Source: a virus
Reading direction: 5' to 3' (one strand)
Length of the DNA stretch: 64,000 nt
Virus record (IMG/VR): IMGVR_UViG_3300026290_000001
Made by a program: the position numbers and the translations under genes
Notes under the pieces: model-generated
Told to the model about the DNA's origin: nothing
What the model saw: only the letters and a program-made list of their open reading frames with translations
Databases searched by the model: none
In this document: piece by piece, positions 5,593 through 23,741 of the stretch
How the letters are laid out: each line of letters opens with the position of its first letter
How positions within the stretch are numbered: the stretch's first letter is position 1

Positions 5593-7347
5593 ATGGATAG
5601 TAAATCGATTATTGACGAATATATAAAGAAAACAGATTGGAGAGTAAATGAAAATTCAAATTCACCTTATAGTTTTGGTGGATTAAATAAACATATAATT
5701 GCTGAAATATCAAAAGATTATTGGCTAAGGAATGTTTATCCCAAAAGAATAACTAATACTTATCTTAATGGGAAAATGCATATTCATGATCTTGGAGGAA
5801 TGACGTTATATTGTTGCGGATATTCTCTTAAAGATATACTAATGATGGGTGTACAAGGAGTACCTAATATTCCTACTTCTGCCCCTGCTAAACATTTTGA
5901 TGCTGTACTTAATCAATTAAGTAATTTAGTTACTGTGTTTCAAAATGAAATTATGGGTGCAGTAGCTTTTAATTCTTTTGATACATTACTTGCACCATTT
6001 GTTAAAAAAGATAATTTAACTTTTAAAGAAGTTAAGCAAAGTATGCAAAATTTTATTTTTAGTATTAACTCTAATTCTAGAGGTGGTGCGGAACCTGCTT
6101 TTTCAAATATTACATTTGATCTCACACCACCAGATGATTTATTAAATGAAAATGCAATTATTGGTGGAGATTTTGTTGGTTTTACATATAAGGATTGTCA
6201 AAAAGAAATAGATATGATAAACAAAGCATTTTATGAATTAATGCTTAAAGGAGATGCTAAGAAACGTCCGTTTGCATACCCAATACCCACATATAATATC
6301 CATTCTCGTTTTGATTGGAATAATCCTAATAATGATTTGTTATGGGAAATGGCAGGTAAATATGGTTATCCATACTTTGCAAATTTTTTAAATAGTGATA
6401 TGAACCCAAGTGATATAAGAAGTATGTGTTGCAGACTTAGTATTAATTTAAAAGAATTATCAAGAAAAAATGGTGGGTTATTTGGTGCAGGAGATTCTAC
6501 TGGCTCTATTGGTGTAGTTACAATAAATCTGCCAAGAATAGCATATTTAAATAGTAGTAATAAAAAGAAGTTCTATAAAGATTTAGAACGCACTTTAAAT
6601 ATTGCCAAAGATAGTCTTGAAATTAAACGAAAATGGTTACAAGAAAATATTGTTGATAAAAATATGATTCCTGCCTTTTGTACATATGTAGGCACTTTAA
6701 AAAATCATTTTAGTACAATTGGTGTAGTTGGTATGAATGAAATGTGTGAAAATTTTTTTGGGAAAGATATTGATATATTAACTTCGCAAGGAAAAGAATT
6801 TGCAATTGAAGTTGGTAATTTTATTCGTAATAAACTTATACAATATCAAGAAGAAACTGGCAACCTTTATAATTTTGAGGCTACCCCTGCCGAGTCTACA
6901 TGTTATAGATTAGCAAAAAAAGATTGTGAAGAATTTGATGATATTATTATTAGAGGAACAAGAGAAGCACCTTATTATACAAATTCTTGTCATATGCCAG
7001 TTAATAAAGTTAAAAATATCCATCAAGTATTTGAACATCAAAATGATTTGCAAATTCTATTTACGGGTGGAACCGTAATTCATATATTTATGAATGGTGC
7101 TATTAGCGGACAACAAGCGAAAAGCATTATTAAAACAGTTTGCGAACAATATAAAGTTCCATATGTAAGTATTTCACCATTAAATAGATATTGTCCTAAT
7201 CATAATTATATCGAAGAAAAAGTTGATTATTGTCCTATATGTAATACGCCAGTTGAAATGTATCAAAGAATTACGGGTTATCTTAGGAGAGTTGAATTTT
7301 TTAATGATGGTAAAAAATCAGAATTCAGAGATAGAGTACAATTATAA
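5593..7347 (+). CDS. nrdD: anaerobic ribonucleoside-triphosphate reductase (class III)
   Basis: C-terminal glycyl-radical motif RITGYLRRV preceded by Cys-rich zinc ribbon CPNHNY...CPICN; size and gene order with nrdG. Confidence 0.8.
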   Translation: MDSKSIIDEYIKKTDWRVNENSNSPYSFGGLNKHIIAEISKDYWLRNVYPKRITNTYLNGKMHIHDLGGMTLYCCGYSLKDILMMGVQGVPNIPTSAPAKHFDAVLNQLSNLVTVFQNEIMGAVAFNSFDTLLAPFVKKDNLTFKEVKQSMQNFIFSINSNSRGGAEPAFSNITFDLTPPDDLLNENAIIGGDFVGFTYKDCQKEIDMINKAFYELMLKGDAKKRPFAYPIPTYNIHSRFDWNNPNNDLLWEMAGKYGYPYFANFLNSDMNPSDIRSMCCRLSINLKELSRKNGGLFGAGDSTGSIGVVTINLPRIAYLNSSNKKKFYKDLERTLNIAKDSLEIKRKWLQENIVDKNMIPAFCTYVGTLKNHFSTIGVVGMNEMCENFFGKDIDILTSQGKEFAIEVGNFIRNKLIQYQEETGNLYNFEATPAESTCYRLAKKDCEEFDDIIIRGTREAPYYTNSCHMPVNKVKNIHQVFEHQNDLQILFTGGTVIHIFMNGAISGQQAKSIIKTVCEQYKVPYVSISPLNRYCPNHNYIEEKVDYCPICNTPVEMYQRITGYLRRVEFFNDGKKSEFRDRVQL

Positions 7348-7349
7348 AT

Positions 7350-7802
7350 ATGGAAATTCTTATTAAAGGTATTTTTCATGAACGCACAGAAGATGCTCCT
7401 TTTATTGGGGCATTAATCTGTGCAAATAATTGTAAATTTAATTGCCCTAATTGCTATAATAAAGAATTAAAATTTTCACCTAGTTATTATATAAATGATA
7501 ATGAAATAATTCAAGAGGTAAAATCCAATCTATTTAATAAAGGTATTATTCTTGCAGGATTAGAATGGACTTTACAAGCAGAAGAAATGTTTAGGTTAAT
7601 TGAATTAGCATTAAATAATCAATTAGAAATTATTTTGTATACTGGAATGGATTATGATGTATTAATTAAAAAGTTTCCTGAGTTATTGAATTATCATATT
7701 TATATAAAAACAGGCAAGTATATAAAGGAATTATCAACAGATGATAATATTCAATTTGGAGTTAAATTAGCAAGTTCAAATCAAAAAATATATAAAATAT
7801 AG
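7350..7802 (+). CDS. nrdG: anaerobic RNR activating protein (radical SAM-like)
   Basis: Cys cluster CANNCKFNCPNC near N-terminus; directly downstream of nrdD. Confidence 0.6.
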   Translation: MEILIKGIFHERTEDAPFIGALICANNCKFNCPNCYNKELKFSPSYYINDNEIIQEVKSNLFNKGIILAGLEWTLQAEEMFRLIELALNNQLEIILYTGMDYDVLIKKFPELLNYHIYIKTGKYIKELSTDDNIQFGVKLASSNQKIYKI

Positions 7803-7987
7803 AAAGGAGGGAAATAACCATACCACAATTCATTCTCTGTAAAAAAACAACTTGTCCTAACCCGAACATGAAAATCATCCTTACAATGATTTTATAAATT
7901 TATGTGATGATAATGATGAGTATAGATATTTTGTGAAGATTCGTGAAACTGACAAAGTGATTAAATTAGATGTAAATAAAAAAGAAG

Positions 7988-8431
7988 ATGAGGAGAAAAT
8001 TGATGAATATTAAAATTAAATACTTTAATGACCAACTAGAAAAAATACAAAAAATATCTCAAGGAGATTGGATTGATTTACGTTCATCTATTAATTGTGA
8101 ATTAAAACAAGGAGAATTTAAATTAATACCACTAGGTGTTGCTATGGAATTACCAAAAAATCATGAAGCACATATTGTTCCTAGGTCAAGTACTTATAAA
8201 AATTTTGGAATTATTCAAACTAATCATAAAGGCGTAGTTGACGAATCTTATTCGGGCAATAACGATCAGTGGTTTATGCCTGTTATTGCCTTTAGAGATA
8301 CAAAGATAAATATGAATGACAGAATATGTCAATTCAGGATTGTAGAAAAAATGCCAGAAGTTAATTTTATTGAAGTTGAAGAATTAGGTAATAAAGATAG
8401 GGGAGGGCATGGAAGTACAGGTATTCAATAA
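7988..8431 (+). CDS. dut: dUTP diphosphatase (dUTPase)
   Basis: dUTPase motifs PRSS and [10 protein letters not shown]-terminal Gly-rich RGGHGSTG. Confidence 0.7.
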
Positions 8432-8496
8432 ATATAGCAGAGGTTATCCCTCTGCTATCCCTTCAATAAACAATTTAATTCAAAGGAGGCAATTAT

Positions 8497-8691
8497 ATGA
8501 AATGTACCGATCCTAAATTATGCATCCACTATTTTGAATTTGATATTTCACCAACAAAAATAAAATCAGTTTGTATAAAACATGAATTTGATATTAATTT
8601 TCACAACATAAATCAAATAGAAAAATGCCAAGATCATAAAACATACGAGCAAGCTAGGGAAGAACGGAAAAACTACTTGAAAATTAATTAG
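8497..8691 (+). CDS. hypothetical protein
   Basis: ORF with RBS AAAGGAGG. Confidence 0.25.
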   Translation: MKCTDPKLCIHYFEFDISPTKIKSVCIKHEFDINFHNINQIEKCQDHKTYEQAREERKNYLKIN

Positions 8692-8742
8692 TTATGTATT
8701 AAAATAGTAATATAAAAATACATTAATTATTGGGAGGTATTT

Positions 8743-8982
8743 ATGGAATATACGAGCGTAAATAATATCGCAGACGCTACCCATTGGATATCATTGCCTG
8801 ATGCTGATAGTCCAGTCAGAGATTCAATTATTCCCCACAAAACATATAAATTACACAAAATAAAAGATGATATTGATTTTGAAGAATATTATATAATTGA
8901 TGAAAATAATAATTATGCTATGACATATATTTGTCATAAAGGAATGTTTGTAAAAGAAAGGATAATTAATGAAAATCCCTAA
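8743..8982 (+). CDS. hypothetical protein
   Basis: ORF with RBS GGGAGG. Confidence 0.25.
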   Translation: MEYTSVNNIADATHWISLPDADSPVRDSIIPHKTYKLHKIKDDIDFEEYYIIDENNNYAMTYICHKGMFVKERIINENP

Positions 8983-9274
8983 AACTATAAAAATTGGCTG
9001 GAGAATTTATGAAGTAAAATTTATTGATGAAGAAATTAGAGATAAGAATGGTGATTTACTAGATGGGCAAATCGACTTCAATAATCATATTATCTATATC
9101 GATAATGGCATGATATATGAAGATGAAAGAATAGTTACATTTTTACATGAAGTTGTGCATGGAATATTCCATAGTTACTGCAATTCAAAGTGGAATGATG
9201 ATGAAGATTTAGTGGAGTGTGTTGCAGAAGGGATATTCCAATTGATTAAAGATAATCCTAATTTATTTAAATGA
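8969..9274 (+). CDS. small HExxH metallopeptidase-like protein
   Basis: HEVVHGIFH motif. Confidence 0.3.
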   Translation: MKIPKTIKIGWRIYEVKFIDEEIRDKNGDLLDGQIDFNNHIIYIDNGMIYEDERIVTFLHEVVHGIFHSYCNSKWNDDEDLVECVAEGIFQLIKDNPNLFK

Positions 9275-9290
9275 GAAAGGAAATATAAAT

Positions 9291-9554
9291 ATGGATAATA
9301 TAATTAAACAAATACGTAAAATTATTGGAAATAATGATTCTAGTCATATACAAGTTAATATTGGTATTAATGAGATATGGTTTAATATCTATGAATCGGA
9401 AGTATTGATAACTATTGATACAAAAAAGAAAGAAATTTACGTTGACTGTGAATTATCAAACCATCATTTAACTAGCAGTATGTTATACGAATTATATATG
9501 ATTACTGAATTATTAGAAACTAAATGGGATGTGTTTGAGGAATTATTAAAATAG
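9291..9554 (+). CDS. hypothetical protein
   Basis: ORF co-oriented in module. Confidence 0.25.
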   Translation: MDNIIKQIRKIIGNNDSSHIQVNIGINEIWFNIYESEVLITIDTKKKEIYVDCELSNHHLTSSMLYELYMITELLETKWDVFEELLK

Positions 9555-9568
9555 AAAGGAAAGGTAAA

Positions 9569-10240
9569 TTGATTAAAGTAGAAAATATAGAAGTGTTCAA
9601 TTTTCAAGGGGCTTTAAGGGGCATGCGGAATCCTTTAGAATCTTGGGATAAATCAGATAGTTATTGGAATGACACTACTATTGAAAGTGTCAAAGATTTC
9701 ATCATTGGTGAAAAAGATATGACACTTGCTTTAAAACTTATTAAAGCAGGAAATGAACATGCAAAATTCATGCGTCAAATTTTTGTCTCAATGGATATTA
9801 CTGCGCCTTTATATTGGTGGAAGGAAGCAGACACATATAAAATTTCTACAGTAGCAAACAGTACATCCACTATGCACAAAATGGGCAGCAGACCATTAAT
9901 TTATGAAGATTTTTCTTGGGATAAATTCTTTGAAACAAATTTAGGTAATATTACTGATGAATATATCTACAACTCAATTGAAAAATACCGACAGGATACT
10001 TTATCTCACTTAAACGAATTGATAGAAATATGGCAGGAACGAAGAGATAAGAAAATATGGCTGGCAATAATTCAAAACTTACCTTCTTCGTTTAATCAAA
10101 TGAGAACTTGGACTGGTAATTATCAAGTATTAAGAAATATGTATTTTCAGAGACGTAATCACAAGTTAAAGGAGTGGAAAGATTTTTGTAAGGTGATTGA
10201 GGAGTTACCTTATAGTGAATTGATTATAGTGGAAAAATAA
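9569..10240 (+). CDS. ThyX-like (flavin-dependent thymidylate synthase fold) protein lacking the canonical RHR motif
   Basis: Segment ITAPLYWWKEADTYKISTVANSTSTM loosely parallels the ThyX region around the RHRxxSxxxxSxR motif but without the Arg/His residues; placed among nucleotide-metabolism genes. Confidence 0.3.
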   Translation: MIKVENIEVFNFQGALRGMRNPLESWDKSDSYWNDTTIESVKDFIIGEKDMTLALKLIKAGNEHAKFMRQIFVSMDITAPLYWWKEADTYKISTVANSTSTMHKMGSRPLIYEDFSWDKFFETNLGNITDEYIYNSIEKYRQDTLSHLNELIEIWQERRDKKIWLAIIQNLPSSFNQMRTWTGNYQVLRNMYFQRRNHKLKEWKDFCKVIEELPYSELIIVEK

Positions 10241-10257
10241 AAAGAAAGGAAGAATAT

Positions 10258-10788
10258 ATGAAAATAATAAATATATCGGGCAAGGCGCAACACGGGAAGG
10301 ACACAACGGCATTAATTTTAAAAAAGAAATTAGAATCAAAAAATAAAAAAGTTATAATAACTCACTATGCAGACCTACTCAAATATGAAGCAAAACAATT
10401 TTTTAATTGGGACGGAAATAAAGATGAAAAAGGTAGACAAATACTTCAGTATATGGGTACTGATGTAATAAGAAAAATAAATCCTGATTATTGGGTTAAT
10501 TTCATTAAAGAATTTATGTCAATGTTTGAAAATGAATGGGATTATGTAATAATTCCTGATTGCAGGTTCCCCAATGAGATTGAAGTGTGGGGCATTGATA
10601 ATTGGCCTAATGTATCGGTTAGAATTATTAGAGATAATTTTATTAGTAATCTCACTCCTGAACAATTAAATCATCCATCTGAAACTGCTTTAGATGATTA
10701 TGAATTTGATTATTACATATTTAATTCTGATGATATAAATTATTTAAATAAAGAAGTAGATTATTTAGTTGAATGGCTGGAGGTATAA
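10258..10788 (+). CDS. P-loop nucleotide/nucleoside kinase (dNMP-kinase-like)
   Basis: N-terminal Walker A ISGKAQHGKDT. Confidence 0.4.
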   Translation: MKIINISGKAQHGKDTTALILKKKLESKNKKVIITHYADLLKYEAKQFFNWDGNKDEKGRQILQYMGTDVIRKINPDYWVNFIKEFMSMFENEWDYVIIPDCRFPNEIEVWGIDNWPNVSVRIIRDNFISNLTPEQLNHPSETALDDYEFDYYIFNSDDINYLNKEVDYLVEWLEV

Positions 10789-11346
10789 ATGAAAAGAAAG
10801 TTTTTTATTGATTTTGATAATACAATTATAGATACAACCAACGCTTTCTGCGCAGTTTATAATGAGCTTTATTGCGATCATCCTAATTTTAAAACAGCAG
10901 AACCAGATCAAGTTAAGGTTTACAATTTTTCTGACGAATGTCCTTTAGTTACAAATGTAGAAGAAATTTTTACTCATCCATTATTCTTTCAATTTGCAGA
11001 ATTTATAAATCACAATACATATGAAACTCTAGAAAAATTAAACAATAAATATCAACTTATAGTATGTTCAATAGGTTGGCCTAAAAACTTAGCATACAAG
11101 GCACGTTGGTTGGAAGAAAAACTACCTTTTATTAAAGACTATGTTCTAATCAGTAATCCTACATGCAAAATGAATAAGAGCATTGTAAATATGGAAGGTG
11201 CAATATTTTTGGACGATATACCGTCAAACTTATATAGTTCAAATGCTGAAAGAAAGATATTATTTGGTAAGAGATATATTTGGAATAAAGAATGGGATGG
11301 AGAATGGGTAAGAAGTTGGAGTGAAGTTGAAGGAAGGTTTTTGTAG
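10789..11346 (+). CDS. HAD-family 5'(3')-deoxyribonucleotidase-like
   Basis: N-terminal FIDFDNTIIDT (DxDxT HAD motif I). Confidence 0.5.
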   Translation: MKRKFFIDFDNTIIDTTNAFCAVYNELYCDHPNFKTAEPDQVKVYNFSDECPLVTNVEEIFTHPLFFQFAEFINHNTYETLEKLNNKYQLIVCSIGWPKNLAYKARWLEEKLPFIKDYVLISNPTCKMNKSIVNMEGAIFLDDIPSNLYSSNAERKILFGKRYIWNKEWDGEWVRSWSEVEGRFL

Positions 11347-14456: not shown

Positions 14457-15461
14457 TTATTGATAGAAATATTGAGTATAACTTTGTTGCTTGTGTTCAA
14501 ACGTTTGTTTTGCGTAAATGCCCGTAGTTTGAATATCATCATGACCTAAAAGTTCTTGTAATACCGACATTGGACAACCGTTATTTAGCATCAAGGTTGC
14601 GAAAGTATGTCTGAGCATATGGGGATGAGTTCTCTTGTCAAGCCCTGCACGTTTACCTATTGCTGCTATTTCTCGTTGAATACCTCGATTGCTTAATCTT
14701 CTATATTCCTGCCGTTCTGTTACAAATAATGCTTCACAGTCATCCTTACGACTTTCAAGATATTTTTTAAGGTAAATTGCAGCTCTAGCAGAATAGAATA
14801 CAATTCGCTCTTTGTTTCCTTTGCCTAATACCTTAATCGTCCGATTTGATTGTCCTATATCATCTTTATTTAGTGCCGATATTTCAGATAATCGACAACC
14901 TGTTGAATACATAATTTCAGTTAATGCTTTTTCTCGCAAAGTGAAACAACTTTCACGGAATAGTTCCAATTCTTCAATTGTTAATGCCTTTGCCATTGCT
15001 TTTCCCACTTTATAAGGTTTAATTCTAATCATCGGATTTTCTTCAATAATCTGTTCCTCACAAAGCCATTCAAAGAAACTGCGAAGTACTGAGCGAATTG
15101 TCTCAACAGTACTTTTAGCATTTACTGTTGGGTCGCTTTCCCGATCATCCAGATAGTTAATTATGTCCTGCTTGGTTATTTCATTTACTGGTTTTTCTTC
15201 GGTTCTATCGGTAAATATTTTAAGATGAAGTCGATAATTATCAATAGTTATTGGACTTAATCCTTGCCGTTTTTTATCCTTCAAAAACAGTTTTATGTTT
15301 TTCCGCAAATTATAATATTCTGGATCGCTGTTTTGTTTTATAACTCTGTATTCATCAAGAATGGAGGCTAATTGATTTTTAGCCTCCATCTTATTCATGC
15401 CTTTTTCTATGATTCCATCTACAATTTTAGCATATAGCTCATAATTGAGATTAGGGTGCAT
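14457..15461 (-). CDS. XerC/XerD-like tyrosine site-specific recombinase
   Basis: RLSE (box I Arg), GKGNKER, HMLRHTFAT (H-x-x-R), LGHDDIQTTGIYA (catalytic Tyr). Confidence 0.8.
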   Translation of the reverse strand: MHPNLNYELYAKIVDGIIEKGMNKMEAKNQLASILDEYRVIKQNSDPEYYNLRKNIKLFLKDKKRQGLSPITIDNYRLHLKIFTDRTEEKPVNEITKQDIINYLDDRESDPTVNAKSTVETIRSVLRSFFEWLCEEQIIEENPMIRIKPYKVGKAMAKALTIEELELFRESCFTLREKALTEIMYSTGCRLSEISALNKDDIGQSNRTIKVLGKGNKERIVFYSARAAIYLKKYLESRKDDCEALFVTERQEYRRLSNRGIQREIAAIGKRAGLDKRTHPHMLRHTFATLMLNNGCPMSVLQELLGHDDIQTTGIYAKQTFEHKQQSYTQYFYQ

Positions 15462-15729
15462 AGAATACCTCCTTTTATTTAGTTGTTACTGAAGGTTCAT
15501 AGTCTACTGCGAAGTAACTTCTTAATACACATTTGCGAAGTCAGAAAACTTTTTAACCAATATCAAACAACCCCGACAATTTCTCTAACTTTTTCCCTAT
15601 ACATATTAGGCACAAAATCAATTATAATTCGCCCACTTTCTACTGCATATACCCACATTCCTAATATAGCTTCACTCATATCATTCATCTCCTTTTAGAT
15701 TAAACAATTCGGTTCTTAACATATCGATT

Positions 15730-15960
15730 TCAGCCATCATCAAAGTGAGTAGAAGTGCTATTCCTTCTGCATCTTCGTTGAAAGCCAACTTCGATATAGT
15801 CATTCTTGTTGAACACTTGCTCATCATATTCCCAACCACTAAACCCCTTCATGGCGTCAATATCTTCTTCCTCAATTCGCACTATATTCGTCCGAACATA
15901 GACTGTATCAGCATTCACTTCAATGGGCTTAACTGTTTCCTGTGTCCCTCTTATTCTCAC
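15730..15960 (-). CDS. hypothetical protein (GTG start)
   Basis: Small ORF just downstream of the tail-fibre gene. Confidence 0.25.
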   Translation of the reverse strand: MRIRGTQETVKPIEVNADTVYVRTNIVRIEEEDIDAMKGFSGWEYDEQVFNKNDYIEVGFQRRCRRNSTSTHFDDG

Positions 15961-16035
15961 GCTTTATCACCTCTTTATAGTATTTTCCTTGATAGGCTTC
16001 TATTCGACCCATTCGACCAATTACCACTGTTATTA

Positions 16036-17187
16036 TTAAAAATACACGAGGCGAGCGCCGATAACCGAATACTTTTCAGACTCCGAATAACCCACATGCA
16101 GCCGAAACGCCCCCGCCTTATCCGCAGCCGACCAATCACCACCGAAACGCGGCAAGCGCGAAACATTCAGAACCGCGGAATCGGGATAATGCGTGCTTTC
16201 GCTTCCGTTTGCTGTTTTGACGATAAAACCCGTTTCCGTACCACCTTGTATGTCGTCTATGTAACCGACTATATTCGTTGTCGCACCCTGTCCGTAATTT
16301 GTATATCCAGAACCAATATCGTTAAAACTTTCATTGCCGATTAGGATGTTTCGGTCTGCATCACTAAATAATCCGTCAATCCAATAGTAAATATTACCCC
16401 AAAAATCTTCTATGCCACAAAATTTTAATTGTTGTTTTCCTGTAGTTTCACCATAGAACATACCTTTAGCATTTGTAGCACCCGTATTAACTTTGGCACT
16501 ATTCCCATCGACATAACCTCTGCCTAAAGCAGTTTGCCAATCCCTACTCTTAAACATCACCGTACCTAAGACTTGCAACATTAAAAGTTGAAAATAAGCC
16601 ATTTGGTCATAACCACTGCCATTCGCCTGTGCAATAGTTCTAAATGCACCGATAGTTTCATAAGCGGTTGTTATTTTTCCGCTTAAACTTCTTAATTTAG
16701 AACCGTCAGAATATCCTAAATAAGCTGAAATGTAACACTTGGCTTTTTCGGTTGTACCCCTCATATGTGCTAAACATTTATACCCACTATCTACCTTTGC
16801 ATTAGCATATCTTACATACAAGTCAGTCCCAATGGTTTCAAATTTCCACCAAATCTTAGGAAATTCAATCATTACGTCACCATCTGCACCACTTGTAATG
16901 TCTGCATTTGTCCCGTCAATTTTTTTAGTATAATCGTTTGGATTTAGATAGTATTGCACCACTCCATTTTTAAGTAAACATGGTTTAATCTGATTAAATG
17001 GAAACTTGTCTTGCCAACTACCATAAGAAAAATTGCCATTATTTCCTTGGGCTGGAGTAAAACCTATTGCATTATCTGTATAGGCTAAAGCAGTTTCGGG
17101 GTTGCTATTTGTAGTATCAATTTTGATGCCATATATTTTAGGTGGTGATTTTACTGGTTTTCTTTTCCTAATTAATGCCTCACCCAT
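16036..17187 (-). CDS. tail fibre / receptor-binding protein with C-type-lectin (FGE)-like C-terminal domain
   Basis: Position in fibre cluster; C-terminus RFGGDWSAADKAGAFRLHVGYSESEKYSVIGARLV fits the RGGxW...GFRxV pattern of CLec/FGE-fold variable domains; 3' end visibly GC-rich. Confidence 0.45.
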   Translation of the reverse strand: MGEALIRKRKPVKSPPKIYGIKIDTTNSNPETALAYTDNAIGFTPAQGNNGNFSYGSWQDKFPFNQIKPCLLKNGVVQYYLNPNDYTKKIDGTNADITSGADGDVMIEFPKIWWKFETIGTDLYVRYANAKVDSGYKCLAHMRGTTEKAKCYISAYLGYSDGSKLRSLSGKITTAYETIGAFRTIAQANGSGYDQMAYFQLLMLQVLGTVMFKSRDWQTALGRGYVDGNSAKVNTGATNAKGMFYGETTGKQQLKFCGIEDFWGNIYYWIDGLFSDADRNILIGNESFNDIGSGYTNYGQGATTNIVGYIDDIQGGTETGFIVKTANGSESTHYPDSAVLNVSRLPRFGGDWSAADKAGAFRLHVGYSESEKYSVIGARLVYF

Positions 17188-18030
17188 TTACCTCACCACC
17201 TTTAGCTGAATTGGCAAACTAACTTCAGGTTTATCCATCGCATATAATGTTATAGAATTATTAGCAGTTGTTACACGATAAATTTTACCCCACTCATTTA
17301 CTCGTTCTTTATCTGTAGCAAATGTGCCACTCATTACTACGTCAACTATAGGATTGTCATTTGACGATATTCCAGTTACCGTTTGCGTTTTCGTATATGG
17401 GGCTTCTGTACCTGTCCAAGTAGTATCAAGTGTTGTCGTAAGCGTAGCGTGATATACGTGTCCTAATTTACTTATTGTCGCACCATCTGCCAGATGGTTA
17501 GCAAACTTTTTCCCAACCCCACTAACCAAAGGTCTTTTATCGACAATTATATTTACAGTTTTATCCGCATTTGTACTAATAGTACCAATTAATAGACTTC
17601 CATCTGTAATTGTTCCATCTATACTACTAGCAAAATTTCCATCATTTTTAAGATATATAGTATAGGTTATACTGGCCGATACTGGATTAATAGTAAAAGT
17701 TGTATCAGATGTTTTAGTTATAGTATTTATTGTATTTCCACTAAATGTTTCACCAGTACCACTAGCAATAACTATACTTAATGTATCTGTACCACTCGTA
17801 TAAAATGCAGATTTTATTCTAAATGGACTATCCAATTCTAATGAATTTAATAAAAATCTCGCATCTTTCCATGTTGCTCCTAAATCTCTAGGATCAGTAC
17901 CACCTAAAGTAACATTTGCATCATCAGCAACATGGATAATATCTAAACCACTATATTTATTTCTAATTTCTGCTACTTGCTCATCTGTATGTATAGCAAA
18001 TACTTTGCTATTTTTAATTACACAAATCAT
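17188..18030 (-). CDS. tail fibre protein
   Basis: Shares a roughly 110-aa domain (about 75% identical by eye) with the adjacent tailspike; Ser/Thr/Gly-rich. Confidence 0.45.
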   Translation of the reverse strand: MICVIKNSKVFAIHTDEQVAEIRNKYSGLDIIHVADDANVTLGGTDPRDLGATWKDARFLLNSLELDSPFRIKSAFYTSGTDTLSIVIASGTGETFSGNTINTITKTSDTTFTINPVSASITYTIYLKNDGNFASSIDGTITDGSLLIGTISTNADKTVNIIVDKRPLVSGVGKKFANHLADGATISKLGHVYHATLTTTLDTTWTGTEAPYTKTQTVTGISSNDNPIVDVVMSGTFATDKERVNEWGKIYRVTTANNSITLYAMDKPEVSLPIQLKVVR

Positions 18031-18049: not shown

Positions 18050-19813
18050 TTACACTATTATCCATGAACCTTTATTTCCCTCAGAATTAGGTTCAGGAGA
18101 GAAAATAGGACTGCCACTATAATTAGAACAACGTACATATCCATTGTTATATGCAAATATATCAATTAAACCTGCATCACCAACATTAGAATTTGAAGCA
18201 AATAAAGAACCTTCTTCACAACAATCTATATTGTATTCCACATTGTTTTTTGCAATAATTCCCGAACTAAATCCTTTTCCACCATTATTAACTGTTAATC
18301 CTGATTTATTTCCACAAACACATATATTTTCTGCCATCATACCCCCACCAGTAGAATCATAAGCACCTTTTTCAGAATTACCATTTGCTATACAATTATT
18401 TATATAAATCCCTGCGAAATTGGAACATTCATAACCATTTTCATTATTGGAAGATGCTGTATATGGTGCAGTAATACCTGCTCTGTTAGTTACAAAAAAA
18501 CCAGATTTAAAACCAGATACTCCAACATTTGTACCACAAGTTATGCTTGCGCCTGTTGTTGATAATATTCCATAATTAGTACTAGCATTAGAACCAATAA
18601 TTGCAACATTATTTAATAATCCTAATTCAGAACGGTCAGCAACAATACCATTACAATTTGTAAATTTTAACGTTGTAGTTAAAACAACAAAATCTCCACC
18701 CGTTAATGCAACAGCAGGGAATGGAGTACCTTGAAAAGTATTTTTAACCGTTACTACGTTTCCATTTATATTTATAATTTCATACATTCCACGTAAAACT
18801 TCATGATTACCTGTGCCTGTAGTATTTTTTATAATAGCATATTGTCCTACTTGCATACCTACTGCACTAGCAACTGTTATAGGTACAGACCAATTTCCAG
18901 CAGTATCAGAAACACTACCTACGTTTGAAACGGTTGTGGCAATAGGAGTAGCACCAATTATTCTTATATTAGAACCATTAACATGATTTATTTTAAGTTG
19001 AGAAGTATGTTCATACATTTCTGTTAATAAAGAAATAGTTACAGTAGTTGAACTAGTTATACTAGCAGTTTTTATACTATCTAAAGCATTTGGTATTGTA
19101 GTAAAATCACATCCAGTAGAGCCAACAGTTATAGTTTTATTGGCATCTATAATAGTATCTGTTAAATGTTTAATAAATTCACTACCTACAGCACTAACTA
19201 AAGGTCTTTTATCAGTAATTGTATTTATAGATTTATCTGCATTGGTACTAATTGTTCCTATTAAAATACTTCCATTTGGAATACTACCATTTGTACTTTT
19301 ATCAAAATTACCATCATTCTTTAAATAAATATTATAGGTCACGCTAGCACTTACTGGATTAATATTAAAAGTAGTATCAGATGTTTTTGTAATAGTGTTT
19401 AAAGTAGTACTATTAAAACTTTCACCTGAACCCGAAGTAATTATTATTGATAAAGTATCTGTTACTGAATTATATTCAGCAGATTTTATCTGAAACGGAT
19501 ACCCATATACATCTTCTACATTACTTTTTAAACTATCATGATCATATGCTGTAAATAATCTTCCTATTATCGTTCCATTACTCCATGTCTGTGCTGTCCC
19601 TTGAAATCCCCTAGTTACACCAACCAAACTACTACCACTTTTATCTGTATATAAAATAGTTTCTGCATTATTACCAGTTCCTATAGTAGCAAGATTAGGT
19701 GCATTGGGAAAAACTGAAATATCAGTTACGGGGATGGTAGTTGCAATACTATTTATATCAGAAGAAAGTGTTGTAAGAGGGGAGTTAATTTTAGCATTAT
19801 ACATTGTTTCCAT
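18050..19813 (-). CDS. tailspike with right-handed beta-helix (pectate-lyase-like) domain, putative depolymerase
   Basis: Repetitive N/G/S-rich coils (NCNGIV...NNVAIIG...GTNVGVSG...NNCIANGN...) typical of parallel beta-helix; N-terminal domain shared with neighbour. Confidence 0.5.
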   Translation of the reverse strand: METMYNAKINSPLTTLSSDINSIATTIPVTDISVFPNAPNLATIGTGNNAETILYTDKSGSSLVGVTRGFQGTAQTWSNGTIIGRLFTAYDHDSLKSNVEDVYGYPFQIKSAEYNSVTDTLSIIITSGSGESFNSTTLNTITKTSDTTFNINPVSASVTYNIYLKNDGNFDKSTNGSIPNGSILIGTISTNADKSINTITDKRPLVSAVGSEFIKHLTDTIIDANKTITVGSTGCDFTTIPNALDSIKTASITSSTTVTISLLTEMYEHTSQLKINHVNGSNIRIIGATPIATTVSNVGSVSDTAGNWSVPITVASAVGMQVGQYAIIKNTTGTGNHEVLRGMYEIININGNVVTVKNTFQGTPFPAVALTGGDFVVLTTTLKFTNCNGIVADRSELGLLNNVAIIGSNASTNYGILSTTGASITCGTNVGVSGFKSGFFVTNRAGITAPYTASSNNENGYECSNFAGIYINNCIANGNSEKGAYDSTGGGMMAENICVCGNKSGLTVNNGGKGFSSGIIAKNNVEYNIDCCEEGSLFASNSNVGDAGLIDIFAYNNGYVRCSNYSGSPIFSPEPNSEGNKGSWIIV

Positions 19814-22448: not shown

Positions 22449-23741
22449 TCAGTCATGAGATGAATTGGCTCTGTTCTGTTCATATATAATCCATGATTTT
22501 CTTGCATTAATTCTTTGCATGTTAGATATTTTCGGTGTCTTCATACCTCTGGGTGCATTACTAAAATCTATTTTTTCACCATCTATACCCATAAGAATGG
22601 CATAACCCGTAGACATTCTACCTTTAATAAAATATTCATTACCTATATACCTTACTTTATCAAACTTCCTAAATCCTTCTATTTTACCTGTAGGTATCTT
22701 CTGATGACTTCTTACTCCTTTTGCCTGTTGGTAATCGCCTTTAGGGATACACTTTTTTAATACAGCTTTTTCAGTTTTAAAGCTTACATCAATTAACCCT
22801 ATATCTTCAATATTATTTAAACAGGCAATAGCTACAGCATCGTAGTAATGCTCTTTTGGTAATCCCATTAGCTGTCTATGTTCTTTGGTAATAAATCCAA
22901 AGGTTTCTTTTGCATTTGGTAGCTGTCTTAATAATTGTTGTCTTATACTATTCATCTGTGTTGTGTGTTTTAATTGTCCTTTAATTTTACCATTCTTCTT
23001 TAATTTAATTCCTCCTTTGTGCAAACTATTATGACAAGTTTTACAAAGTGTAATTAAATTTTCTGCATCATCTGAGCCACCATTTTTTCTAAAAACTATA
23101 TGATGTACCTCTAATCTGCTGTCTTTACTTTTTCCTTTGCAATACTGGCAAATATATTTATCTCTACTTAATACATAAGCTTTAGTATTAGCAAATCCAT
23201 AATTAGTTCCTTTTTGATAAAGCCATTTATTACTTAATACTGCTGGATTTTTTAAAGCATGTGGGTCAAATGTTGCTGTTTCTATTATTATATTTGTAAT
23301 GGGCATTATTGATTTTGCAAAATCAATTTCTTTTAAGTGTGAATTAATTTTACTTGTCATTGTAGGAGAAAATCTATCTTTTTTAATGCTGTTTTTCCTA
23401 TTATTAAATCTAGGTTCCCTATATCTAGTTTTCCTATTCCTTCTAGTTCTCCTATATTTAGCTCTTTTGTCCATTTTGTCAGATATATCATTTCTAATTT
23501 CTACTTCTGATATATAATACACTTCATTTTCGTCATTTGCTACTGCACTTCCTATTTTACTACTACCAGTATCAATTCCTAAAGTTAAATCTTGTGTATA
23601 GTCTGTAGCATGATATAGTAATTTAATTGTAAATGGAGTTCTTCTTATGCATTTTGCTTTACCATCTTTTAACAATAATCTTGCTATTGCTGGTTTACAA
23701 GGCATTAAAGGACTCCCATCTTCATTAATTACATAAACCAT
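22449..23741 (-). CDS. iscB: IscB-type RNA-guided nuclease (OMEGA system effector; PLMP + split RuvC + HNH)
   Basis: N-terminal PLMP motif (GSPLMPCKPAIARLLLKDGKA), RuvC-I LGIDTGSSKIG, Arg-rich bridge RRTRRNRKTRYREPR, RuvC-II IIIETATFD, HNH CQYCKGK...EVHHIVFRKNGGSDDAENLITLCKTCH, RuvC-III HYYDAVAIA. Confidence 0.75.
   Translation of the reverse strand: MVYVINEDGSPLMPCKPAIARLLLKDGKAKCIRRTPFTIKLLYHATDYTQDLTLGIDTGSSKIGSAVANDENEVYYISEVEIRNDISDKMDKRAKYRRTRRNRKTRYREPRFNNRKNSIKKDRFSPTMTSKINSHLKEIDFAKSIMPITNIIIETATFDPHALKNPAVLSNKWLYQKGTNYGFANTKAYVLSRDKYICQYCKGKSKDSRLEVHHIVFRKNGGSDDAENLITLCKTCHNSLHKGGIKLKKNGKIKGQLKHTTQMNSIRQQLLRQLPNAKETFGFITKEHRQLMGLPKEHYYDAVAIACLNNIEDIGLIDVSFKTEKAVLKKCIPKGDYQQAKGVRSHQKIPTGKIEGFRKFDKVRYIGNEYFIKGRMSTGYAILMGIDGEKIDFSNAPRGMKTPKISNMQRINARKSWIIYEQNRANSSHD

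What the first reader, a model, noticed from the sequence alone, without database searches (positions are those of the whole stretch)
16036..16330. Tail-fibre gene with compositionally anomalous GC-rich 3' end encoding a CLec/FGE-like motif: DGR variable-region-like, but no RT or template in window
The last roughly 150-250 bp of the 16036..17187 gene are far richer in G+C than anything else in the window, using codons like gcg/cgc/ccg/cgg that are otherwise rare here. The encoded C-terminus (RFGGDWSAADKAGAFRLHVGYSESEKYSVIGARLVYF) follows the RGGxW ... GFRxV pattern of C-type-lectin/FGE-fold domains that diversity-generating retroelements diversify in phage receptor-binding proteins, and ends in a GC-run (ggcgctcgcctcg) where an initiation-of-mutagenic-homing-like element would be expected. 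However, there is no reverse transcriptase ORF and I could not find a second (template) copy in the window, and the variable-looking codons do not all end in C as AAC-derived codons would. So this is either a DGR remnant, a target serviced by an RT outside the window, or a recently acquired foreign receptor-binding tip.
Basis: partly seen in the sequence, partly recalled or inferred. Interest (0 to 1): 0.7.

Follow-up and report, generated by a model that had tools for sequence, protein, structure and literature searches.

The report
Phage tail gene with dead DGR
The GC-rich end of this phage tail gene is the former hypervariable receptor-binding tip of a diversity-generating retroelement whose template and reverse transcriptase were deleted, leaving only a short scar, so the tip is now fixed; this is a clear example of a known system decaying, not a new mechanism.

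The parts
16036..17187 (-). Tail protein or receptor-binding protein gene (383 aa). It is a former DGR target with a C-type-lectin (CLec) fold.
16037..16182 (-). Former variable region (VR): A-poor, G-rich, now fixed.
   Evidence: It is colinear with the VR/TR repeats of relatives. Against the TR of the closest intact relative, L114, 29 of 42 TR-adenine sites are changed but only 25 of 104 other sites (p = 1e-6); the latter equals the background divergence of the gene, 27%. It holds the highest GC peak of the window. It is identical in 9 contigs and 3 protein cluster members.
16010..16034 (-). Template-repeat (TR) fragment. The following 8 nt, 16009..16002, are of uncertain origin.
   Evidence: 25 of 25 positions equal the gene's own VR base or are A, and 17 are identical. 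No random window 25-mer out of 20,000 and no shuffle out of 20,000 reaches this. The 19 nt at 16029..16011 are identical to the TR of L114, and 18/19 to 21/25 match the TRs of L013, L011 and L012. blastn also hits the TR interior of L016, L019 and L021.
15929..15994 (-). Remnant of the 3' end of the reverse-transcriptase gene (about 22 codons plus the stop: YQGKYYKEVIKRENKRDTGNS*). It overlaps the RBS and start of the next ORF.
   Evidence: It is the best tblastn hit of a family RT in the whole window (residues 341-363 of L011's RT, 65% identity) and lies at the syntenic position. By DNA, window 15986..15863 matches L011 3115..3241 (72%, E 2e-18) and window 15985..15896 matches L012 2983..3072 (78%, E 4e-18). 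It maps to the RT 3' end in all four reference cassettes.
15730..15960 (-). Small conserved ORF (phrog_18126) that follows the RT in DGR-intact relatives. It marks the downstream edge of the deleted cassette and looks frameshifted here.
   Evidence: phrog_18126, E 1.8e-9. Homologous ORFs lie directly after the RT in L011, L013, L018, L022, L026 and L114. The C-terminal part reads in the frame of 15681..15839.

Best explanation
The gene encodes a distal tail or receptor-binding protein. Its C-terminal C-type-lectin domain displays a patch of residues that an adjacent diversity-generating retroelement (DGR) used to rewrite. In the ancestral arrangement, still intact in many relatives, a ~145-nt template repeat lies 25-60 bp after the stop codon, followed by a ~350-aa reverse transcriptase. 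The template RNA is reverse-transcribed with random bases opposite adenines, and the cDNA replaces the variable region. Repeated rounds, plus selection for G at scaffold codons, leave the variable region poor in A and rich in G. That produces the GC anomaly in a 29% GC genome. In this phage about 1.3 kb of the cassette has been deleted. Only 25 nt of the template and the last ~22 codons of the RT gene remain; the RT end was probably kept because it carries the ribosome-binding site and start of the next gene. With no full template and no RT, the variable region is fixed and now evolves only by ordinary mutation, so the phage has one fixed receptor specificity. Shown here: the composition, the fold, the DGR activity signature in relatives, the scar, the absence of a template or RT in the DNA examined, and the absence of variation. 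Inferred: the tail-tip receptor-binding role, the past mutagenic homing in this lineage, and the reason the RT end was retained.
For: Composition and codon anomaly. Tail-protein family. CLec fold of DGR variable proteins. Relatives carry VR-TR pairs with almost only A(TR)-to-N(VR) mismatches; for L114, 30 of 42 A sites changed and 0 of 104 others. The RT is downstream with a YCDD motif or an RVT_1 hit. Synteny is target-TR-RT-small ORF in relatives, against target-75 bp-small ORF in the window. TR fragment. RT remnant. The window VR carries the adenine-specific fingerprint relative to L114's TR: 69% of TR-A sites differ against 24% of non-A sites, and the latter equals the 27% background divergence of the gene. 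There is no second copy or RT in the window. An anchored TR/VR pattern hits only the VR itself on the 64.9-kb and 99.6-kb IMG/VR contigs of this phage and nothing in 185,579 reference genomes. No RT or TR lies in the 8.5 kb beyond the window's far end. Nine contigs from several samples differ by 1-4 nt over up to 21 kb, with no difference in the VR or scar. The 90% protein cluster has 3 members with identical tips. Other relatives show independent partial deletions of the same cassette.
Against: About 29 kb of the ~135-kb phage genome could not be examined, so a second template there is not strictly excluded. The metagenome scan was uninformative because that collection does not hold this phage. 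Assemblies give consensus sequence and can hide low-frequency tip variants; no reads were available. The scar is not a single clean junction. The segment from the stop codon to about TR position 34 is also missing, and 8-16 nt between the TR fragment and the RT remnant (16009..15995) cannot be assigned. At least two deletions or a more complex event are therefore needed. The RT remnant is short: the protein-level E-value is only 0.066 within the window, so its weight comes from position, DNA-level matches and agreement across four reference cassettes. The anchored search pattern assumes no non-adenine mismatch over 62 nt.
Confidence: 0.9

Rival explanations
1. The variable region is still an active DGR target, serviced in trans by a template and RT elsewhere in the phage or host genome, outside the window.
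For: DGRs with remote or multiple targets are known (my own knowledge; a two-target phage DGR is described in PMC10743442). About 29 kb of the ~135-kb genome was not examined.
Against: The cognate cassette next to the gene is visibly deleted. No TR-compatible sequence exists in the window, on the 99.6-kb contig, in the 8.5 kb beyond the window, or in reference genomes. There are no tip differences among 9 contigs from several samples or among 3 cluster members, while differences do occur elsewhere in the gene.
Confidence: 0.04
2. The GC-rich tip is a recently acquired foreign receptor-binding module from a higher-GC phage, and its composition reflects the donor rather than DGR mutagenesis.
For: The composition shifts sharply within one gene. 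Phage tail tips are commonly exchanged (my own knowledge).
Against: The same excess appears in the tips of relatives in AT-rich genomes that carry their own cassette: L013 0.45 against 0.30, L012 0.51 against 0.35, L011 0.53 against 0.37. It is explained by A-to-G or A-to-N changes relative to their TRs. At non-adenine template positions the window's tip is as diverged from L114 (24%) as the rest of the gene (27%), so there is no recombination boundary. The TR fragment beside the gene matches the gene's own tip under the adenine rule.
Confidence: 0.04
3. The neighbouring tyrosine recombinase (14457..15461) switches tail-fibre tips by site-specific inversion or cassette exchange (shufflon-like), and the odd tip is one such cassette.
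For: A tyrosine recombinase gene lies 575 bp downstream of the tail gene. The closest relative, L111, also has a 334-aa tyrosine recombinase downstream of its tail gene.
Against: No alternative tip cassettes and no meaningful inverted repeats flank the tip; only short chance-level matches were found. There is no second copy of the tip in the window. All contigs show a single arrangement.
Confidence: 0.01

Closest known systems
Bordetella phage BPP-1 DGR (Mtd target, TR, Brt reverse transcriptase)
   Different: The window has no functional TR or RT, only a scar. Sequence identity to Mtd is about 12-18%. Family TRs use AAT rather than AAC codons, and the TR lies directly after the stop codon with no gene between. 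The accessory protein Avd was not looked for.
TaqVP, the Thermus aquaticus DGR variable protein (PDB 5vf4)
   Different: 13-18% sequence identity. TaqVP is a bacterial protein with an active DGR, whereas this is a phage tail protein whose cassette is deleted.
DGR-intact homologues in uncultivated phages (for example L114/P0003, L011, L012, L013)
   Same: 69-74% protein identity, the same tip scaffold (LPxFGGxW...AGAFxL...IGARL), and the same downstream small ORF. L114's TR contains the 19-nt sequence kept in the window's scar.
   Different: They keep a ~145-nt TR and a 351-362-aa RT. The window keeps 25 nt and about 22 codons.
Degraded DGR cassettes and orphan variable proteins in cyanobacteria (Vallota-Eastman et al. 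2020, PMC7517822)
   Same: [quoted passage not shown] The window fits the same idea.
   Different: Those cases are cellular regulatory proteins. This one is a phage tail protein, with both deletion edges identifiable and several independent deletions in close relatives.

Membership tests
Diversity-generating retroelement (functional cassette) | DGR-type reverse transcriptase gene near the target | tested here: not met
   tblastn with family RTs finds only residues 341-363 at 15994..15929; nothing else in the window reaches E below 0.2. No RVT Pfam hit appears within +/-10 kb of the gene or in the 8.5 kb beyond the window end.
Diversity-generating retroelement (functional cassette) | Full-length template repeat that differs from the VR almost only at its own adenines | tested here: not met
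   Only a 25-nt fragment remains (16034..16010); it does obey the adenine rule, 25/25. No full copy was found in the window, on the 99.6-kb contig or in reference genomes.
Diversity-generating retroelement (functional cassette) | Hypervariability of the VR within populations | tested here: not met
   There are no differences in 15900..16200 among 9 contigs from several samples, and 3 protein cluster members have identical tips. Consensus assemblies only; reads were not available.
Diversity-generating retroelement (functional cassette) | IMH or hairpin element at the 3' end of the VR | tested here: inconclusive
TR-VR homology runs to about the stop codon. No specific IMH or hairpin analysis was done for the window.
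Diversity-generating retroelement (functional cassette) | Accessory variability determinant (Avd or equivalent) | not tested
   No gene lies between the target, TR and RT in relatives. Other positions were not searched.
DGR variable proteins with C-type-lectin fold (Mtd/TvpA/TaqVP type) | CLec/FGE-like fold with the variable residues in the C-terminal segment | tested here: met
DGR variable proteins with C-type-lectin fold (Mtd/TvpA/TaqVP type) | Homologues demonstrably paired with a TR and RT | tested here: met
   25 of 44 informative related loci have a TR with adenine-biased mismatches plus an RT aligned over about 270-360 aa.
DGR variable proteins with C-type-lectin fold (Mtd/TvpA/TaqVP type) | The tip of this gene carries the adenine-specific substitution fingerprint relative to a template | tested here: met
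   Against L114's TR, 29 of 42 TR-A sites are changed and 25 of 104 non-A sites (p = 1e-6). Against its own TR fragment, all 8 differences have A in the fragment.
PHROG 5302 tail protein | Profile match over most of the protein, in a tail-gene context | tested here: met
   E 1e-74, residues 16-382. The gene sits in a block of tail genes (YomG_N/Prophage_tail, YomF_N) upstream of holin and amidase genes.

The most novel reading that the evidence does not exclude
Loss of the DGR is not an accident of this one phage but a recurrent and possibly selected outcome in this tail-protein family. Among the nearest relatives there are at least four independent deletion states: the window; L112; L008 and L113, which share one scar; and L111. 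L018, L022/L025, L026 and L044 add more among more distant relatives. Every one that keeps an RT remnant keeps the last 45-60 nt of the RT gene, which overlaps the start region of the next gene. If cassette loss is favoured once a successful receptor specificity has been found, phages would alternate between a searching state with the DGR and a locked state without it, and this family would be a good data set to measure that turnover.
Probability: 0.3. Interest if true: 0.45.

Novelty: new member of a known kind. Interest (0 to 1): 0.3.

Why it matters
The finding explains a striking compositional anomaly with a known mechanism and shows what a dead DGR looks like in sequence: an A-poor, G-rich gene tip next to a short template fragment and the end of an RT gene. 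Surveys that find DGRs through their RT will miss such orphaned targets. Recognising them by tip composition and scaffold motif would allow DGR gain and loss to be counted. For this ~135-kb uncultivated phage it means host recognition through this protein is fixed rather than adaptable. It does not reveal a new mechanism.

Tried and rejected
1. Search for a template in the window by relaxed blastn and by an adenine-aware scan: only A-rich background matches, at most 96 of 120.

The 109-nt version ran but also matches any poly-A or N run, so 53 of its 55 hits are artefacts. It was replaced by a pattern with plain letters at scaffold positions.

3. Metagenome-contig scan: no hits, not even the VR itself, so that collection lacks this phage and the result is uninformative. 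The genome-contig scan also gave no hits.

4. I first concluded that the scar is shared with relative L008, because the spacer has the same 75-nt length and blastn aligned continuously. I rejected this after mapping the scars onto intact cassettes. The window and L008 share only the RT-end part (global score of the first 50 nt is -3), whereas L008 and L113 share a different scar. The excess of window-versus-L008 differences at TR-adenine columns (23/37 against 25/96) is then simply what independent DGR diversification before separate losses would produce.

5. Shufflon-like or invertase switching by the neighbouring tyrosine recombinase: no supporting repeats.

6. Pfam gave no hit for the tail protein.

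7. One literature search on orphan or decayed DGRs was badly specified and useless. Mentions of 'remnant' in PMC5758913 and PMC6199706 refer to prophage remnants, not DGR remnants.

Full report
OBSERVATION

Its 3' end is compositionally extreme.
- The best 150-nt GC window in the whole 64 kb is 16047..16196 at 0.58. The next best is 0.473 and the mean is 0.2875.
- Adenine falls to 6-9 per 60 nt in the last two full 60-nt bins. The last 150 nt are A 0.13 and G 0.34, against A 0.35 and G 0.22 in the rest of the gene.
GC3 is 0.16 against 0.57.

The anomalous part is mainly 16037..16182.

WHAT THE PROTEIN IS

Pfam finds nothing, but PHROGs gives phrog_5302 'tail protein' at E 1e-74. The gene sits at the end of a block of tail genes and upstream of holin and amidase genes.

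The same protein, or a variant with one substitution, is found on at least 15 contigs. Two independent assemblies are 135.3 kb long and one is 138 kb, and the gene content is SPbeta-like (YomG_N, YomF_N, YonG_N). The window is therefore part of a large uncultivated phage.

An AlphaFold2 model built from 44 homologues is confident, with pLDDT 90.6 and pTM 0.92. Its best matches among solved structures are DGR variable proteins.
- Formylglycine-generating-enzyme-type folds follow, then canonical C-type lectins.

THE FAMILY IS A GENUINE DGR TARGET

I examined 45 related loci from IMG/VR and five more from other assemblies.
- 25 of 44 informative loci carry a second copy of the last 110-160 nt of the gene, starting 25-80 bp after the stop codon. 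Almost every mismatch is A in the downstream copy against G, C or T in the gene.
- A reverse transcriptase aligned over about 270-360 aa follows. It has a YCDD motif in L011 and L013 and an RVT_1 hit in L114.
- In L114, the closest intact relative (74% protein identity), 30 of 42 template adenines differ from its own variable region and 0 of 104 other positions do.
- The order in relatives is target (VR), TR, RT, then a small ORF of 79-96 aa.
- Tips of relatives in AT-rich genomes are also GC-rich: L013 0.45 against 0.30, L012 0.51 against 0.35.
- A-to-G is the commonest change. At several scaffold codons the template has A where every variable region has G, for example TTCAGT in the TR against TTCGGT in the VR.

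The GC anomaly is thus a family-wide by-product of adenine mutagenesis plus selection, not a sign of foreign origin.

WHAT IS LEFT IN THE WINDOW

Only 75 bp (16035..15961) separate the stop codon from the small ORF (15960..15730, phrog_18126). That spacer is a scar with two recognisable pieces.

1. TR fragment, 16034..16010. It matches the gene's own variable region at every position except where the fragment has A: 25/25 under the adenine rule, 17/25 identical. None of 20,000 random window 25-mers and none of 20,000 shuffles reaches this. The 19 nt at 16029..16011 are identical to L114's TR, and 18/19 to 21/25 match the TRs of L013, L011 and L012. blastn also places this segment in the interior of the TRs of L016, L019 and L021.

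2. RT remnant, 15994..15929. It reads YQGKYYKEVIKRENKRDTGNS*. It is the best tblastn hit of a family RT in the whole window, and it matches the RT's extreme C-terminus. At DNA level, 15986..15863 aligns to the RT end plus small-ORF start of L011 (72%, E 2e-18), and 15985..15896 aligns to that of L012 (78%, E 4e-18).

Compared with L114's TR, the window's variable region differs at 29 of 42 template-adenine sites but at only 25 of 104 other sites (p = 1e-6). That 24% equals the 27% divergence of the rest of the gene. So the tip carries the DGR fingerprint and shows no recombination boundary.

The junctions are not fully resolved. The stretch from the stop codon to about TR position 34 is also missing, and 8-16 nt between the two fragments cannot be assigned. 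More than one deletion event is likely.

IS THE TIP STILL SERVICED FROM ELSEWHERE?

- No full template is detectable in the window by relaxed blastn or by an adenine-aware scan. There is no RT apart from the remnant.
- A 62-nt pattern that any cognate template must match (each VR base or A, with plain letters at scaffold positions) hits only the variable region itself on this phage's 64.9-kb and 99.6-kb IMG/VR contigs. It hits nothing in 185,579 reference genomes.
- The metagenome collection does not hold this phage, so that scan was uninformative.
- The 8.5 kb beyond the window's far end has no RT domain and no template.
- From the contig coordinates, about 106 of ~135 kb have been covered. 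About 29 kb remain unexamined.
- Nine contigs from several samples differ from the window by 1-4 nt over up to 21 kb, and none of those differences lies in the tip or scar.
- The 90% protein cluster has three members that differ only at residues 175 and 205. The next homologue is only 74% identical.

There is no sign of hypervariability, with the caveat that assemblies are consensus sequences.

RELATIVES LOST THE CASSETTE TOO, INDEPENDENTLY

- L112 keeps 93 nt of TR fused to the RT end.
- L008 and L113 share a different scar that keeps only the RT end.
- L111, the closest relative, has no trace of a cassette.
- L018 keeps the TR and 93 N-terminal RT residues.
- L026 keeps only 110 C-terminal RT residues.
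- L022 and L025 keep the TR but have no RT.
- L044 has a degenerate TR.

I had first read the window's scar as shared with L008, because both spacers are 75 nt long. Mapping the scars onto intact cassettes showed they share only the RT-end part, so the window's deletion is its own event. Every deletion that retains an RT remnant keeps the last 45-60 nt of the RT gene, which overlaps the ribosome-binding site and start of the small ORF. A functional constraint on which deletions survive is the likely reason; this is inference.

COMPARISON WITH WHAT IS KNOWN

This is the BPP-1 type of system: a CLec-fold tail receptor-binding protein, a TR, an RT and adenine mutagenesis. It is in a decayed state.

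As a functional DGR it fails three defining tests: RT, full TR and hypervariability. As a member of the DGR variable-protein family it passes: fold, homologues paired with cassettes, and adenine fingerprint.

Degraded DGR cassettes and orphaned variable proteins have been described in cyanobacteria, with the suggestion that the diversification components are removed once a good variant is found (PMC7517822). I did not find a report of this particular phage family or of such a two-edged scar, but the literature library is incomplete.

VERDICT

It is explained as an orphaned, fixed DGR variable region with a deletion scar (confidence 0.9). It is a new member of a known kind, of low-to-moderate interest. 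The most interesting open angle is the recurrent loss of the cassette across the family.

Noticed in passing
window 15681..15960 (minus strand): The small ORF after the scar (76 aa, phrog_18126) looks frameshifted. Its tail (VGFQRRCRRNSTSTHFDDG) has no counterpart in relatives, while the overlapping frame 15681..15839 encodes ...KLAFNEDAEGIALLLTLMMAEIDMLRTELFNLKGDE. That resembles the C-terminus of the single 90-aa ORF of L013. The nine same-phage contigs show no differences in the part checked, 15900..16200.
   Followed up: partly
window 14457..15461 (minus strand); L111 2540..3544; L109 1843..2721: A 334-aa tyrosine recombinase (Phage_integrase plus SAM-like N-terminal domains) sits between the tail genes and the lysis genes. 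A 334-aa tyrosine recombinase with the same domains also lies downstream of the tail gene in the closest relative, L111. A second, 292-aa tyrosine recombinase lies just beyond the window's far end. No repeats suggest that it acts on the tail gene.
   Followed up: partly
window 17485..17784 and 19157..19456: A 300-nt direct repeat at 75% identity. The two tail genes upstream of the finding (280 aa and 587 aa) share an internal domain (...KSAxYxSxTDTLSIxIxSGxGExF...NTITKTSDTTFxINPVSAS...). This is apparently a partial duplication of a tail-fibre segment.
   Followed up: no
window 22449..23741 (minus strand): A 430-aa protein with RRXRR and HNH domains (a homing-endonuclease-like gene) is embedded in the tail-gene block.
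   Followed up: no
L022 11162..11300 and L025 7209..7347: These relatives keep a TR with purely adenine-type mismatches to the VR, but the RT is gone and the small ORF follows directly. Their TR has an in-frame TAA (GGCACTCACTAAATG) where the VR reads GGCGCTCGCTTGATG, so a faithful copy of the template would truncate the protein.
   Followed up: partly
TR/VR pairs of L011-L025 and L114 (alignments): At several scaffold codons the template always has A and every variable region has G; for example TTCAGT in the TR against TTCGGT in the VR, the second Gly of the FGG motif. The template itself would encode a defective scaffold, so only mutated copies can work. This also accounts for the strong A-to-G excess and the GC-richness of the tips.
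   Followed up: partly
L008, L112, L113, L018, L026 and window 15929..15994: Independent deletions of the cassette that retain an RT remnant all keep the last 45-60 nt of the RT gene. That stretch overlaps the ribosome-binding site and start codon of the following small ORF. This suggests a constraint on which deletions survive.
   Followed up: partly
window 5593..11346 (plus strand), from the annotation of L001/L002: The part of the window beyond the lysis genes encodes anaerobic ribonucleotide reductase (NrdD) with its activase, a dUTPase, a deoxynucleotide monophosphate kinase and a 5'-nucleotidase. Four N6/N4 DNA methyltransferase genes lie just beyond the far end in the 138-kb contig, but only one in the 135-kb contig.
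   Followed up: no
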